Shown piece by piece: positions 502 through 53,557 of a DNA stretch of 64,000 nt. This DNA comes from Chloroflexota bacterium (GTDB lineage Bacteria; Chloroflexota; UBA11872). Each line of letters begins with the position of its first letter. Position 1 is the stretch's first letter. The translations under genes were made by a program, and so were the position numbers. The notes under the pieces were generated by a model. The model was not told the DNA's origin. It saw only the letters and a program-made list of their open reading frames with translations, and made no database searches. The stretch spans positions 2,201,496-2,265,495 of the forward strand of contig CBDEVI010000002.1 of NCBI GenBank assembly GCA_965243625.1, given 5' to 3'.

Positions 502-622
502 GCGACCCTTGCAAATGCCGTCTAGGCGCGGTGACCCCAGGGAAGACCTAGCCAGCTTCCAGGTTCGACCGGACTGGATTCCGGCCTCCGCCGGAATGAC
601 GGCAGGGTCACGCAACGGTCTC
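502..622 (+). mobile_element. MITE copy 1 (121 bp) with internal REP-like hairpin
   Basis: Ends GCGACCCTTGC...GCAACGGTCTC, flanked by a perfect 6-bp direct repeat CAAGAG (496-501, 623-628). Internal TGGATTCCGGCCTCCGCCGGAATGAC at 575-600. Confidence 0.8.
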
Positions 623-14369: not shown

Positions 14370-14456
14370 TCTGGTTCGACCGGACTGGATTCCGGCTCCC
14401 CGCCTGCGCGGTGACAGGCTCCGCCGGAATGACGGAGGGGTGGCGAACAAGGTCCC
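14370..14456 (+). repeat. Right-half MITE remnant whose REP hairpin carries a 22-nt insert
   Basis: Shares GGTTCGACCGGACTGGATTCCGGC...CTCCGCCGGAATGACGG with copy 1; insert TCCCCGCCTGCGCGGTGACAGG at 14397-14418. Confidence 0.65.
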
Positions 14457-14546
14457 CTTAAGCAGGAACGGCCCGCTCGATGGCGGACCGTTTCTGCGTC
14501 TCCGAACATCAGGCCCGCAGCCGGTGGCCGCGGGCGAAGACTCGCG

Positions 14547-14600
14547 CTAGCTCGCGCGCACCTTCTCTGTTCGGGGACCCTTCGGACTGGCATCGCCCAT
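14547..14600 (-). CDS. Candidate 17-aa small ORF MGDASPKGPRTEKVRAS
   Basis: AAGGGGGTGATC strong SD-like sequence just upstream of the ATG; no homology evidence. Confidence 0.3.
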   Translation of the reverse strand: MGDASPKGPRTEKVRAS

Positions 14601-14796
14601 ACAGATCACCCCCTTCGCGTTTCGGGATATTCCGGCCGGCAGCCGGTGCCCGTTATGGGGTGAGTGTACGTCACGGCGCGGTGGATGGTCGCGCGGGGTC
14701 GCAGGCGACTCTCAAACCAGTGCGCCGCCTAGCGACCCGGCGCCGACGGGTAACCTCGATCCATAGGCTGACCCGCGGGGTGGATTCCCGCCTTCG

Positions 14797-14917
14797 GAGA
14801 CCATTGCAAAACCCAGCCGGGCTTGGGGAAGACCGGTCGCAATCTGTCCGCCCCGAGGATCATTGAAGGGTGGATTCCCGCCTTCGCGGGAATGACGAAG
14901 GGTCACGCAAGGGTCTC
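14797..14917 (+). mobile_element. MITE copy 2 (121 bp) inserted in a REP hairpin
   Basis: GAGACCATTGC...GCAAGGGTCTC; flanks CCTTCG/CATTCG; split host TGGATTCCCG|...|CGGGAATG. Confidence 0.8.
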
Positions 14918-14983
14918 CATTCGCGGGAATGTCGGGCTAAAGGTCGCCCGCTTTCTGCCAAGTGCGGCCGCGAGCACTTCGTC

Positions 14984-16096
14984 TTACGACTGCGGCCCCT
15001 GTCCGCCAATGCCCCATAGCTCGTGGCTTGGCTCCCGGGCCATGAGCCGCTGGCCGGCCTCGGCCACCGGCATGCCGTCGAAGAGCACGACATTCATCAG
15101 CTCGACAATGGGCATCTCCACCTGCAGGCGTTGGGCGAGCCGCAGCGCACCGCGCGCCGCTTCCACGCCCTCGGCCACCATCACCATCTGCGCGGTGATC
15201 TCGTCCAGCGGCCGACCTTGCGCCAGCTGGCTTCCGACGAAGTGGTTGCGGGATTTGGCGCTGCCGCAGGTCGCAATCAGGTCGCCTACGCCGGCCAGGC
15301 CGCTAAACGTGAGGGGATTCGCCCCGGCGGCAACCCCGAGGCGAGTCATCTCGGCGAGCCCCCGCGTCATCAAGACCGCCTTGCCGTTCTGGCTGGAGCG
15401 CAGGCCGTCGGCCATGCCCGCGCCGATGGCGATGACGTTCTTGAGCGATCCGGCCAGCTCGACGCCGATCACGTCGTCGCTGGTGTAGGCGCGGAACCAC
15501 GGCGCTCGCAATGCCTGTTGCACCGTCCGCGCCACTTCCGGGTCCGCCGATGCCACGACCGTGGCCGCGGGCTCGCGGGCGGCGATTTCACGCGCGAAGT
15601 TGGGGCCCGAAACCACCGCGAAGCGATCGGACAGATCACCGCCCACCAACTCGGCCATGGCCTCTGAGACCCGTGCGCCCGTCGGCGGGTCCAAGCCCTT
15701 GATTCCACTGACCAGGATGGCCGACGGCGGCAACCATCGCCCCACGCGCTCCAGGTTCTCCGCCAGCCGCCGCATGGGAACGGCCAGCACGACTAGGTCG
15801 GCGCCGTCGAGCGCCGCCGCGGCGTCGTGGGTGATGGTGAGCGTGTCGGGCAGCGGAATCCCGGGCAGGAAGCGGGTGTTCTCGCGCCGGCGCGCCATGG
15901 CGTCGGCCTCGGCCGCGCCATGGACCCACAGCACGCACGCGCCGCCAACGTCGGCCACCAGCGCCGCCAGCGTGGTGCCCCAGCTCCCGGAACCGATGAC
16001 GGTGACGCGCGTCGGAGTGACCTCGATGTTGGCTGTTGGCCGCACCAGTGTAGGCGTGGGCGGCCGCCTGGAACGGCGGGCGGGTCTGTTGGGCAT
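14984..16096 (-). CDS. gpsA: NAD(P)H-dependent glycerol-3-phosphate dehydrogenase
   Basis: GSGSWGT, SGPNFARE, GSLKNVIA, GLAGVGDLIATC, SRN. Confidence 0.95.
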   Translation of the reverse strand: MPNRPARRSRRPPTPTLVRPTANIEVTPTRVTVIGSGSWGTTLAALVADVGGACVLWVHGAAEADAMARRRENTRFLPGIPLPDTLTITHDAAAALDGADLVVLAVPMRRLAENLERVGRWLPPSAILVSGIKGLDPPTGARVSEAMAELVGGDLSDRFAVVSGPNFAREIAAREPAATVVASADPEVARTVQQALRAPWFRAYTSDDVIGVELAGSLKNVIAIGAGMADGLRSSQNGKAVLMTRGLAEMTRLGVAAGANPLTFSGLAGVGDLIATCGSAKSRNHFVGSQLAQGRPLDEITAQMVMVAEGVEAARGALRLAQRLQVEMPIVELMNVVLFDGMPVAEAGQRLMAREPSHELWGIGGQGPQS

Positions 16097-21901: not shown

Positions 21902-22153
21902 GAGACCTTGGCAGCACCGGGTCAGGCGCGGGATGCATGTGCGGAACCCGCTGCGTAGTCCTGTTTGGGTGGGGGATGGATTCCCGCATTCGGAGACCTT
22001 GGCAAAGTCCGGTCGGAGGAATCCCACCAGCCCCCAGTTTCAGTGAAGGGTGGATTCCCGCCTTCGCGGGAATGACGGAGGGGGCGCGAATGATTGAGGG
22101 GCTACGCACGAGTTTCCGTTCGCGGGAACGCTGAGTGGGTGCGCAATGGCCGC
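21902..22153 (+). mobile_element. Nested MITE: outer copy 21902-22153 containing inner copy 21993-22116
   Basis: Outer GAGACCTTGGCA...GCAATGGCCGC with flanks TTCACC/CTCACG. Inner GAGACCTTGGCAAA...GAGTTTC with flanks CATTCG/CGTTCG, inside the outer copy's REP. Confidence 0.7.
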
Positions 22154-30958: not shown

Positions 30959-31069
30959 GAGACGGTTGCTCGGCATTACGGCCGGGGGTTATGGCGGGGT
31001 GGTTTCCCGCTCCCCGCCTTCGCGGGGACAGGCTCCGCGGGAATGACGGAGGGGCTACGTAGTGGCCTC
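30959..31069 (+). mobile_element. Degenerate MITE copy with 22-nt insert in its REP, followed by REP right halves
   Basis: GAGACGGTTGC...CTACGTAGTGGCCTC, then CTTGCGCGGGAATGAC; insert at 31011-31032; left target duplication not recognisable. Confidence 0.55.
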
Positions 31070-31116
31070 CTTGCGCGGGAATGACGGCTCTGTGGGAATG
31101 ACGGAGGGGAGGACTC

Positions 31117-41357: not shown

Positions 41358-41565
41358 GAGACATCGGCGATTCGCGGAGCAACCGTTGCGCTCCTTGGTG
41401 GGACGGGCTGCCAGGTTCAGCGACCGCTGGATTTCCGCGTTCGGAGACTTTTGCAAAATCCAGCCGGGCTTGGGGATGACCAGGCACATCCTTGCCGCCC
41501 CCAGGTTCAATGAGGGGTGGATTCCCGCCGTCGCGGGAATGACGGAGGGCTTCGTCAAAGGCTTT
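41358..41565 (+). mobile_element. Nested MITE: outer left part from 41358, inner copy 41444-~41565
   Basis: Outer GAGACATCGGC...CCAGGTTCAG..TGGATTTCCG|CGTTCG| followed by inner GAGACTTTTGCAAAATCCAGCCGGGCTTGGGG (close match to copy 2); right end degenerate. Confidence 0.68.
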
Positions 41566-53231: not shown

Positions 53232-53383
53232 ATGCACCGACCCGCAACGGCTTTCCCCTGCGGCCAATCCTAGCACCCGCCCTTTCCGTGATTGGTGCGA
53301 AACGCGCCAATCGCGGCGGGCATCCGGGCGGCGGGCTCCCTCGATTCGCCGGTTGACTTGCGGGGATGGATTCCCGCCATTCG

Positions 53384-53503
53384 GAGACCCTTGCATAGTC
53401 CGGTCGAACGAAGCCTGACCGTGCGAACTCCGTGCGCCCCCAGGTTCAGTGAAGGGTGGATTCCCGCTTCCGCGGGAATGACGAAGGATTAGGCATTGGT
53501 CTC
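53384..53503 (+). mobile_element. MITE copy (120 bp) inserted in a REP hairpin
   Basis: GAGACCCTTGC...GCATTGGTCTC; flanks CATTCG/CCTTCG; host halves TGGATTCCCG (53367) and CGGGAATGAC (53510). Confidence 0.8.
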
Positions 53504-53557
53504 CCTTCGCGGGAATGACAAACTCAAGAGGGCTCACCGCGGCAATGCCCGGGATCG

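What the first reader, a model, noticed from the sequence alone, without database searches (positions are those of the whole stretch)
14705..14947. Self-targeting Russian-doll MITE: the element carries its own preferred insertion site
Seen: at 14797, 21993, 41444 and 53384 the MITE splits a TGGATTCCCG-C[C/A/G]TTCG-CGGGAATGAC hairpin at the same position. The CNTTCG hexamer is visible on both sides at 14797, 21993 and 53384; the right side at 41444 is degenerate. The same hairpin is carried inside each MITE, usually about 73-75 nt from the left end. At three loci the split host hairpin itself lies 70-76 nt downstream of an older left end (GCGACT at 14705, GAGACC at 21902, GAGACA at 41358). Degenerate outer right ends follow at ~14947 and ~22153. 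Inference: each insertion delivers a new target, so the family makes its own safe harbours and nests. REP-targeting IS elements are known (IS1397, IS621), but I do not recognise a MITE that both carries and targets the REP.
Basis: partly seen in the sequence, partly recalled or inferred. Interest (0 to 1): 0.85.

Follow-up and report, generated by a model that had tools for sequence, protein, structure and literature searches.

The report
Hairpin-seeking MITE that carries its target
A 121-bp mobile DNA element, a stripped-down copy of an IS5-type insertion sequence, inserts into the loops of short GC-rich palindromes; because it carries one such palindrome itself, copies can land inside older copies, which is a new twist on a known habit of insertion sequences.

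Summary
At window 14797, 21993 and 53384 a ~121-bp element (ends GAGACC…GGTCTC) splits a REP-like hairpin in its loop, and the element carries the same hairpin. At 41444 only its left arm and hairpin are present.

Orthologous loci in same-genus genomes prove sequential insertion. Locus 21993 exists empty, with the outer element alone (hairpin intact), and with outer plus inner. Locus 14797 shows the same three states.

- The element is a MITE of an IS5-group DDE insertion sequence. One full 1187-bp copy with the same ends lies at C2:1386277-1387463. There is no RAYT.
- The target is not only its own hairpin. Of 100 left ends, 34 lie in REP-A, 28 in an unrelated CCCTCTCCC/GGGAGAGGG palindrome, and 24 in none of the eight palindrome classes tested.
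- Of 18 occupied hairpins, only 3 lie in a host showing the family's left arm. The "older left end" at 41358 is conserved host sequence.

Full-length relatives in other Chloroflexota genomes sit in palindrome loops in 54 of 78 cases. Duplications are 4–8 bp and match the spacer length.

Hairpins and MITEs are about 85% co-oriented by chromosome half. This is unexplained.

The parts
14704..14948 (+). Outer, older REP-bearing unit with diverged ends (GGCGAC...GGTCGCC).
   Evidence: Present alone with an intact hairpin in G009 (L005) and G005 (L009). Absent in G010 and G007. Present with the inner element in G003. Not detected by the family HMM apart from its hairpin (h2216292).
14781..14796 (+). 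Left half of the host hairpin (TGGATTCCCG) plus the left copy of the duplicated spacer CCTTCG (14791-14796).
   Evidence: The empty site in G009 reads GGATTCCCG-CCTTCG-CGGAAATGAC.
14797..14917 (+). Inner MITE, 121 bp, with ends GAGACCATTGC...GCAAGGGTCTC.
   Evidence: 231 nhmmer hits of the family in the genome. Folds as a long terminal stem with the hairpin as a branch: -30.3 kcal/mol, z -3.9.
14871..14896 (+). REP-A hairpin carried inside the MITE.
   Evidence: 0 mismatches. (-8.7 kcal/mol as DNA).
14918..14933 (+). Right copy of the spacer (CATTCG, 14918-14923) plus the right half of the host hairpin (CGGGAATGTC).
21902..22153 (+). Outer MITE with near-canonical ends (GAGACCTTGGCA...GCGCAATGGCCGC).
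   Evidence: The site is empty in G009, G010, G004, G003 and G005:C9. Outer-only with an intact hairpin in G005:C90 (L095). Outer plus inner in G000. Its own duplication is TTCACG, flanked by CCG/CGG.
21993..22116 (+). Inner MITE (124 bp) in the loop of the outer MITE's hairpin. Spacer copies are CATTCG (21987-21992) and CGTTCG (22117-22122). Its internal hairpin lies at 22051-22076.
41444..41543 (+). Left arm plus hairpin of a MITE copy inside an older REP-bearing unit. The inner right arm is absent.
   Evidence: The same orthologous loop holds a 22-bp mini-hairpin in G010 and G009, and a different MITE carrying a type-B palindrome in G004.
53384..53503 (+). MITE (120 bp) in a REP loop. Spacer copies are CATTCG (53378-53383) and CCTTCG (53504-53509). 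Internal hairpin at 53457-53482.
   Evidence: All 5 relatives searched lack both the host unit and the MITE here.
502..622 (+). Further MITE copy of the REP-B subfamily, with a perfect 6-bp duplication CAAGAG (496-501 and 623-628). Its target is not a clear palindrome.
30987..31085 (+).
   Evidence: hit C2:2232482-2232564, HMM 62-121..

Best explanation
The ~121-bp repeat is a MITE: a non-autonomous deletion derivative of an IS5-group insertion sequence, moved in trans by that element's DDE transposase. One full copy is present in this genome (1187 bp, 323-aa transposase, same termini).

This IS lineage integrates into the central spacer of short palindromes whose arms are C-rich on the 5' side and G-rich on the 3' side (CCC(G)-N4-8-(C)GGG). 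It duplicates the spacer. The MITE carries one such palindrome (REP-A or REP-B) about 73 nt from its left end, so each insertion adds a usable target and later copies can land inside earlier ones.

Shown:
- Termini, duplications and copy number.
- The cognate IS.
- Empty, outer-only and nested orthologous states.
- Enrichment in palindrome loops.
- Use of at least two unrelated palindrome families.

Inferred:
- That the transposase of this particular IS copy, or a close relative, moved the MITEs.
- That the enzyme reads the hairpin or cruciform shape rather than a sequence motif.
- That nesting serves as a safe harbour.
For: MITE anatomy and abundance:
- blastn gives 224 hits and nhmmer 231 hits, all on C2.
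- 21 near-full copies show terminal inverted repeats and flanking direct repeats.

Cognate IS:
- C2:1386277-1387463 begins GGAGACCTTTGCATAAATCCAG and ends TTATTCAAAGGTCTCC.
- Its ORF matches DDE_Tnp_1 (97.8 bits) and DUF772 (93.4 bits).
- It matches NCBIfam IS5 family model NF033581 at 282.7 bits against a cut-off of 140.

Target choice in G000:
- Of 100 left ends, 34 abut REP-A, 28 type-B, 8 the mini TCCCCGC hairpin, 5 REP-B, 1 CCCCGTA and 24 none.
- Background at random positions is 0.9% for REP and 2.1% for type-B.

Empty sites:
- Locus 14797: G010 and G007 have no unit, G009 and G005 have the outer unit alone with an intact hairpin, and G000 and G003 are nested.
- Locus 21993: empty in 5 places, outer-only in G005:C90, nested in G000.
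- Locus 41444: the same loop is filled by three different inserts in different species.

Full-length relatives:
- 78 of 80 loci have both ends.
- 54 of the 78 have flanks pairing at 6 or more of 7 positions around the insertion.
- Controls: 6 of 390 random positions, and 5-21 of 78 in each of 200 flank shuffles.
- Palindrome families differ between genomes.

Other mechanisms:
- No Y1/RAYT gene in the genome.
Against: - The single full IS copy in G000 does not itself sit in a clear palindrome. Its flanks read CACCG / CACGG.
- Its right end (TTATTCAAAGGTCTC) fits the MITE right end (TTACGCAAGGGTCTC) less well than the ends of relatives in other genomes. The actual driver may therefore have been a lost variant.
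- 24 of 100 left ends and 19 of 75 right ends lie in none of the palindrome classes tested.
- Copies are old. The best match to the 14797 copy elsewhere in the genome is 89% identical, and many duplications carry a mismatch. No recent activity is shown.
- IS5-group elements are recalled to make a fixed 4-bp duplication. Here the duplication is 4-8 bp.
Confidence: 0.85

Rival explanations
1. The split hairpin halves are part of the element itself (an extended terminal inverted repeat ATTCCCG-N6-GAGACC). On this reading nothing was targeted, and the hairpin halves are carried along at each transposition.
For: The arms of the hairpin are inverted repeats that continue the element's own inverted repeats. 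In a few copies the two spacer copies are inverted rather than direct, which makes one long palindrome: C2:767012 and L037, L039, L072.
Against: Orthologous sites carry the intact hairpin with no element (G009, G005, G005:C90). The same element ends abut unrelated palindromes or no palindrome. The host flanks outside the arms differ at every locus.
Confidence: 0.03
2. The nested pattern is one ancestral composite that was copied as a unit, or it arose by tandem duplication or recombination. It did not arise by repeated insertion.
For: Some loci are rearranged. Six copies are followed directly by a second hairpin-half plus right arm (HMM 85-121 abutting 1-121). Flanks are chimeric at C2:2623209 and C2:2006186. 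The inner right arm is missing at 41444. Recombination between nested copies clearly happens.
Against: Empty, outer-only and nested states of the same locus exist in related species. The 18 occupied hairpins have unrelated surroundings and hosts of different kinds. Inner and outer units belong to different subfamilies.
Confidence: 0.03
3. The element is moved by a single-strand or RNA-guided system known to act on REPs: a RAYT/IS200-type Y1 transposase, or an IS110-type recombinase with a bridge RNA. On this reading the IS5 copy is a coincidence.
For: Orientation of hairpins and MITEs follows the chromosome half at about 85%, as is known for IS200/IS605 elements (passages seen in PMC3971601). 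One IS110-family gene lies next to the IS5 copy.
Against: No Y1_Tnp match in a genome rated 96.8% complete. The element has terminal inverted repeats and target duplications, which those systems do not make. A full IS with identical termini exists. 78 related full-length ISs show the same insertion habit. Full-length ISs lie in either orientation relative to the hairpin: 11 one way and 7 the other, by my reading of the rows.
Confidence: 0.03
4. The MITE and IS reading is unchanged, but the target is read as a DNA sequence motif (CCC(G)...(C)GGG half-sites) in ordinary duplex DNA. It is not read as an extruded hairpin or cruciform. The palindromes are hit simply because they contain the motif twice.
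For: Palindromes with the opposite polarity (GGGCGGGTC...GACCCGCCC, about 75 copies; GGGCGACG, about 27) are hit at 0 of 100 left ends and 2 of 75 right ends. REP-B, which has CCGG in place of CCCG, is hit 5 times against 34 for REP-A at similar abundance. The outer element at 21902 went into a minimal CCG-N6-CGG site.
Against: Identical-length IS copies within one genome (L024-L034, L055) have duplications of 5, 6, 7 and 8 bp that track the spacer. This is hard to reconcile with a fixed stagger on B-form DNA.
Confidence: 0.4

Closest known systems
IS1397 / ISKpn1 (IS3 family) and the REP-targeting ISs catalogued by Tobes and Pareja 2006 (PMC1525189; passages and table rows seen)
   Same: DDE insertion sequences that integrate into REP-type palindromes. 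That paper lists five IS families with this habit, including one IS5-family member (ISNm1106: 4 of 7 and 7 of 14 copies in REPs).
   Different: Those are full-length ISs hitting a host REP family. None is described there as a MITE that carries the target; 'MITE' and 'nested' each occur 0 times in that text. Here several unrelated palindrome families are used, and the duplication length follows the spacer.
IS1272 (IS1182 family) of Staphylococcus (PMC5678879; abstract and section 22 read)
   Same: A DDE IS related to IS5 whose new insertions hit inverted-repeat (stem-loop) structures of different size and sequence, with 4-6 bp intervening regions. The authors conclude that the target is a structure.
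   Different: IS1272 is reported to replace the target's inverted repeats and to leave no duplication. Here both arms survive, flanking the element, and the spacer is duplicated. The transposase here scores as IS5 (282.7 bits) and falls below the IS1182 cut-off (187 against 270).
IS621 / ISPpu9 / ISPpu10 (IS110 family, bridge-RNA guided; search listing and abstracts only)
   Same: High specificity for REP sequences.
   Different: Those use a DEDD recombinase with RNA-guided site choice and have no terminal inverted repeats or duplications. The element here has both, and its partner is a DDE IS5 enzyme.
Coxiella QMITE2 (as summarised in the MITE review PMC10969869; passages seen)
   Same: A MITE that contains a REP-type palindrome which served as an insertion target.
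   Different: In Coxiella the incoming element is an unrelated IS (IS1111). Here the incoming element is another copy of the same MITE superfamily, so the family seeds its own targets.
REPINs and RAYTs (PMC3116915 and PMC2817692; search listing and abstracts only)
   Same: Abundant short palindromic repeats dispersed in intergenic DNA, which form composite structures.
   Different: No RAYT gene in this genome. The mobile unit here has DDE-type ends and duplications.
Nested MITEs of maize and rice (recalled; not searched or read here)
   Same: MITEs that often insert into other MITEs.
   Different: As recalled, the plant cases reflect a short sequence preference (TA/TAA) and AT-rich MITE bodies. 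They do not involve a discrete hairpin target carried by the element.

Membership tests
MITE (non-autonomous DDE transposon) | Terminal inverted repeats | tested here: met
   GAGACCnTTGC...GCAAGGGTCTC in 21 of 21 near-full copies.
MITE (non-autonomous DDE transposon) | Target-site duplication, confirmed against an empty site | tested here: met
   The empty site CCCG-CCTTCG-CGG in G009 becomes CCTTCG|MITE|CATTCG in G000. Perfect 5-6 bp repeats are seen at many copies.
MITE (non-autonomous DDE transposon) | Small, non-coding, many copies | tested here: met
   About 121 bp. 231 nhmmer hits, of which 61 span the full model.
MITE (non-autonomous DDE transposon) | Autonomous partner with the same termini | tested here: met
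   1187-bp IS at C2:1386277-1387463. Related ISs L013-L092.
IS5 family, IS5 group (the partner IS) | DDE_Tnp_1 catalytic domain with N-terminal DUF772; NCBIfam IS5 model above its cut-off | tested here: met
   PF01609 at 97.8 bits and PF05598 at 93.4 bits. NF033581 at 282.7 bits against a cut-off of 140.
IS5 family, IS5 group (the partner IS) | Fixed 4-bp target duplication (recalled from general knowledge of IS5; not checked in a source here) | tested here: not met
   29 perfect direct repeats: 4 bp in 1, 5 bp in 10, 6 bp in 14, 8 bp in 4 (my tally of the rows).
REP / REPIN-RAYT system | A RAYT (Y1_Tnp) gene in the genome | tested here: not met
   PF01797: 0 matches in G000, completeness 96.8%. 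The control search found it in 6 of 14 reference genomes.
REP / REPIN-RAYT system | Short imperfect palindrome, highly repeated, intergenic | tested here: met
   252 sites match the hairpin pattern. About 110 REP-A and about 95 REP-B have perfect 7-nt arms.
IS110-type REP-specific IS | DEDD transposase inside the element; no terminal inverted repeats or duplications | tested here: not met
   The element has both inverted repeats and duplications. The only PF01548 match (C2:1385403-1385873) is a separate gene.
IS1272-like hairpin-replacing IS (IS1182 family) | Target inverted repeats replaced; no duplication | tested here: not met
   Both arms are retained and the spacer is duplicated. The IS1182 model scores 187 bits, below its cut-off of 270.

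The most novel reading that the evidence does not exclude
This clade of IS5-type DDE transposases is guided by structure. It attacks the two loop-stem junctions of an extruded hairpin or cruciform, probably at the replication fork. As a result:
- The duplication equals the spacer whatever its length (4-8 bp for identical IS copies).
- Gap repair across a palindromic target sometimes copies the other junction and leaves an inverted spacer.
- The MITE, by carrying a hairpin, manufactures its own landing sites.

The roughly 85% co-orientation of hairpins and MITEs with the chromosome half would then be a footprint of that coupling, or of a polar function of the hairpin itself.
Probability: 0.25. 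Interest if true: 0.8.

Novelty: new variant of a known kind. Interest (0 to 1): 0.55.

Why it matters
REP-type palindromes are already known as landing pads for insertion sequences. A MITE that brings the landing pad with it closes a loop: the more the family spreads, the more harmless intergenic targets it has. This may explain how small genomes come to hold hundreds of mosaic palindromic repeats, here in a lineage whose nearest IS relatives are all Chloroflexota/Dehalococcoidia MAGs.

The spacer-length duplications give a concrete and testable hint that a DDE transposase can read DNA shape.

The strongly polar orientation of the hairpins is a separate puzzle about chromosome organisation in a little-studied phylum.

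Tried and rejected
Searches for the mobilising enzyme:
- RAYT/Y1 transposase as the mobiliser: no PF01797 match.
- IS110 as the mobiliser: one gene found, but the element's anatomy does not fit.

Other readings of the repeat:
- Known RNA family: 0 Rfam matches at E up to 1 over window 14400-15100.

Scans that were too noisy:
- Loose scans for terminal-repeat pairs to find the parent IS or hairpin-less MITEs. The stricter scan found the IS.

Explanations tried for the orientation bias:
- Hairpin more stable on one strand: -8.7 against -8.9 kcal/mol, no difference.
- Bias follows gene orientation: hairpins between co-directional gene pairs lie 64 with and 55 against the genes. My crude ORF set is 1280 against 1223 co-oriented with the segment majority.
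- GC skew changes sign near both switch points but is weak, and it is negative from 950 to 1800 kb.
- dnaA lies at 2.54 Mb, about 210 kb from the nearer switch. Calling the two halves replichores is therefore tentative.

Strict same-family nesting:
- Under strict end criteria, 1 of 15 occupied hairpins lies in a complete outer copy.
- With the HMM, 3 of 18 hosts show the left arm.

Literature:
- Four searches found no description of a bacterial MITE that carries the target of its own transposase. The 2024 MITE review (PMC10969869) does not contain the word 'nested'.
- The paper on small dispersed repeats in cyanobacteria that I recall was not found.
- Supplementary files were not opened.

Full report
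**What is there.**
The window is G000:C2:2201496-2265495, in a genome of 3.25 Mb and 68% G+C.

At 14797-14917 lies a 121-bp element with ends GAGACCATTGC...GCAAGGGTCTC. It sits between TGGATTCCCG-CCTTCG and CATTCG-CGGGAATGTC, which are the two halves of a hairpin. The element carries an intact copy of the same hairpin at 14871-14896.

The arrangement recurs at 21993 and 53384, and in part at 41444. The hairpin pattern has 5 matches in the window against 0 in 100 shuffles.

**Family size and structure.**
- blastn with the 14797 copy gives 224 hits. A profile built from 21 near-full copies gives 231 nhmmer hits at E up to 1e-3, all on the chromosome contig C2.
- A hairpin-anchored scan found 252 hairpin sites, of which 237 could be oriented.
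  - 45 have both element ends.
  - 55 have the left end only.
  - 30 have the right end only.
  - 107 have neither.
- There are two hairpin variants: REP-A (CCCGC...GCGGG) and REP-B (CCGGC...GCCGG).
- Several subfamilies differ by internal modules, some of them other palindromes, so the family is mosaic.
- The 14797 copy's best match elsewhere in the genome is 89% identical. The copies are not recent.

**The transposase.**
A strict scan for the terminal motif outside known copies found a pair 1187 bp apart, at C2:1386277 and C2:1387463.
- The interval starts GGAGACCTTTGCATAAATCCAG and ends TTATTCAAAGGTCTCC. It encodes an intact 323-aa protein.
- The protein has DDE_Tnp_1 and DUF772 domains.
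- It scores 282.7 bits on the NCBIfam IS5 model NF033581, whose cut-off is 140.
- The genome has no Y1/RAYT match and one IS110-type gene, which lies next to this IS.

The repeat is therefore a MITE of an IS5-group insertion sequence.

**Proof of insertion into a pre-existing hairpin.**

Locus 14797:
- G010 and G007 have nothing at the site.
- G009 and G005 have the outer unit alone, reading ...GGATTCCCGCCTTCGCGG(A/G)AATGAC...
- G000 and G003 have the outer unit with the MITE in the loop.
- The duplicated piece is the 6-bp centre CCTTCG.

Locus 21993:
- The site is empty in G009, G010, G004, G003 and G005:C9 (...CCGTTCACGCGGTTGCC...).
- G005:C90 has the outer MITE alone, with an intact hairpin.
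- G000 has outer plus inner.
- G005 thus holds both an empty and an outer-only version on two contigs. This may reflect a strain mixture.

Locus 41444:
- The same orthologous hairpin loop holds a 22-bp mini-hairpin in G010 and G009.
- It holds a MITE left arm in G000.
- It holds a different MITE, carrying the other palindrome type, in G004.
- G003 has no unit.

Locus 53384:
- None of the five relatives has the host unit or the MITE.

These states rule out both the extended-repeat reading and the copied-composite reading.

First, the element's own hairpin is not the only favoured target.
- The 100 left ends are classified as follows:

| Flank class | Left ends (of 100) |
|---|---|
| REP-A | 34 |
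| Unrelated CCCTCTCCC-N5-GGGAGAGGG palindrome (type B) | 28 |
| Mini TCCCCGC hairpin | 8 |
| REP-B | 5 |
| CCCCGTA | 1 |
| None of the tested classes | 24 |

- The 75 right ends give type B 24, REP-A 20, none 19, mini 6, REP-B 2, GGGCGGGTC 2 and CCCCGTA 2.
- An earlier, looser classification gave REP 37 and type B 32 of 100, against 0.9% and 2.1% of random positions.
- Intact palindromes with perfect 7-nt arms number about 110 (REP-A), 95 (REP-B), 85 (type B), 75 (GGGCGGGTC type) and 27 (GGGCGACG type).
- About a quarter of REP-A and of type B are therefore occupied, about 5% of REP-B, and essentially none of the palindromes with G-rich 5' arms.

Second, nesting inside a recognisable copy of the same family is uncommon.
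- 18 of 61 profile-complete copies rebuild a hairpin when cut out in silico.
- Among the 18 hosts, 3 match the family profile through the left arm, 6 match hairpin plus right arm, 6 match the hairpin alone, and 3 do not match.
- Several hosts, including those at 14797 and 53384, belong to a diverged hairpin-bearing unit with ends like GGCGAC.

Third, two details at the 41444 locus do not hold.
- GAGACA at 41358 is conserved in relatives that lack the unit.
- The 41444 copy lacks its right arm, probably through recombination between the inner hairpin and the outer hairpin half. That cause is inferred.

**Behaviour of the full-length IS elsewhere.**
The transposase found 164 relatives in the genome collection. 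The best 80 loci are MAGs labelled Chloroflexota or Dehalococcoidia (58-87% identity), plus three from Bauldia.

78 of the 80 loci have both ends. In 54 of these, the 7 bases beyond the putative duplication pair at 6 or more positions. The controls are 6 of 390 random positions, and 5-21 of 78 in 200 flank shuffles.

The palindrome family differs by genome: REP-like, CCCTCTCCC type, CCTGCCCCC type and GTACCCCC type.

The 54 palindromic cases break down as follows:
- 29 have perfect direct repeats. By my tally of the printed rows these are 4 bp (1), 5 bp (10), 6 bp (14) and 8 bp (4).
- 2 have a direct repeat with one mismatch.
- 9 have spacer copies that are inverted relative to each other (4 perfect, 5 with one mismatch).
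- 14 are unclear.

In one genome, 1189-bp copies of identical length show repeats of 5, 6, 7 and 8 bp (L024-L034, L055).

**How it most likely works.**

Shown: a DDE IS and its MITE integrate at the centre of CCC...GGG palindromes and duplicate the spacer.

Inferred, with moderate support: cleavage positions are set by the two arm-spacer junctions rather than by a fixed stagger. This would be natural if the target is extruded as a hairpin or cruciform.

A motif-based reading remains open. It is favoured by the polarity rule, the weak use of REP-B, and the CCG-N6-CGG site of the outer element at 21902.

For the inverted spacer copies I propose a template switch during gap repair. The free 3' end of one arm pairs with the complementary arm at the other junction, copies the spacer there, and returns through the terminal inverted repeat. 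This is untested.

**Orientation.**
- 198 of 231 profile hits follow a two-segment pattern: minus strand from 0 to 683 kb, plus strand from 683 to 2334 kb, minus strand beyond.
- So do 201 of 237 oriented hairpins. The best breakpoints, chosen after the fact, are 646,596 and 2,330,565.
- The bias holds for every class tested:
  - MITEs in REP: 33 of 37.
  - MITEs in type B: 29 of 32.
  - MITEs elsewhere: 22 of 26.
  - Solitary hairpins: 88 of 107.
- It does not follow neighbouring genes: 64 with and 55 against.
- Inner MITE and host hairpin are co-oriented in about 14 of 18 cases by my reading. That is what two independent 85% biases would give.
- In G014, a one-contig genome of another genus, 31 of 36 hairpins fit a two-segment pattern by my reading of the rows. 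G006 and G002 show it only in part, and G012 not clearly.
- IS orientation biases tied to replication are documented (PMC3971601; passages seen).
- The cause here is open.

**Comparison and novelty.**
- REP-targeting ISs are known in five families, including IS5 (PMC1525189).
- A hairpin-targeting relative, IS1272, is known but behaves differently (PMC5678879).
- A MITE whose REP was hit by an unrelated IS is known in Coxiella (PMC10969869).
- I found no description of a bacterial MITE that carries the target of its own transposase.

I rate this a new variant of a known kind.

Noticed in passing
G000 C2, whole chromosome (switches near 0.65 and 2.33 Mb); also G014:C1: Hairpins and MITEs are about 85% co-oriented by chromosome half (198 of 231 hits; 201 of 237 hairpins). 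The bias is independent of gene orientation. GC skew changes sign near both switches but is weak, and dnaA lies at 2.54 Mb. G014 shows 31 of 36 in a similar two-segment pattern.
   Followed up: partly
window 31003-31024; C2:43490, 691038, 799973, 1312711; flanks at C2:190228, 2690696, 2772584; L106/L107 (G010, G009): Mini-hairpins of 22-24 bp (TCCCCGCCTnCGCGGGGACAGG, or CCCGTATCrAGTACGGGGCAGGCT) sit inside hairpin loops, and MITEs in turn sit inside the mini-hairpin loop. That makes three levels of nesting. It is unknown whether they are tiny mobile units, excision footprints or repair products.
   Followed up: partly
C2:767012; L018-L021, L037, L039, L072, L082, L088: In 9 of 54 palindromic IS insertions and at least one MITE, the two spacer copies are inverted relative to each other rather than direct. 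L038 (direct) and L037/L039 (inverted) are the same IS in one genome.
   Followed up: partly
L024-L034, L055, L064, L090 (one MAG chromosome): IS copies of identical length (1189 bp) carry direct repeats of 5, 6, 7 and 8 bp that match the palindrome spacer. This is unusual for a DDE transposase.
   Followed up: partly
G000 C2, genome-wide: Abundant palindromes with G-rich 5' arms (GGGGCGGGTCTCAGACCCGCCC type, about 75 copies; GGGGCGACGCATGCGTCGCCCC type, about 27) occur as modules inside MITE subfamilies but are almost never insertion targets (0 of 100 left ends, 2 of 75 right ends).
   Followed up: partly
G000 C2, e.g. 96968, 2702799, 2904718: 55 copies have the left arm and hairpin but no right end. 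Several continue into another palindrome (CCCGGTGGCCCAGGCTGCGTGCAGCCTGGG). The origin of this truncated class is not explained.
   Followed up: no
C2:1385403-1385873 (L001/L002): An IS110-family transposase gene lies immediately beside the only full IS5 copy. Its own target and boundaries were not examined.
   Followed up: no
L085, L086, L088: Related ISs (about 59% identity) occur in Bauldia MAGs (Alphaproteobacteria). One of them (L088) is inserted in a CCCTCTCCC-type palindrome. This suggests that the habit crosses phyla or that the IS was transferred.
   Followed up: no
orthologues of window 14700-14950 in G001, G008, G004 (L008, L012, L007): The same intergenic spot carries different palindromic units in different species, including an oppositely oriented hairpin with a mini-hairpin in G001. 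It is a recurrent landing site.
   Followed up: partly
C2:583140-583307, 630255-630409, 1463334-1463490, 1483881-1484039, 1896511-1896664, 2623146-2623306: Complete copies are followed directly by a second hairpin-half plus right arm. Some have a left flank of a different palindrome class (C2:2623209, 2006186). This is consistent with recombination between nested copies deleting the outer left arm.
   Followed up: partly
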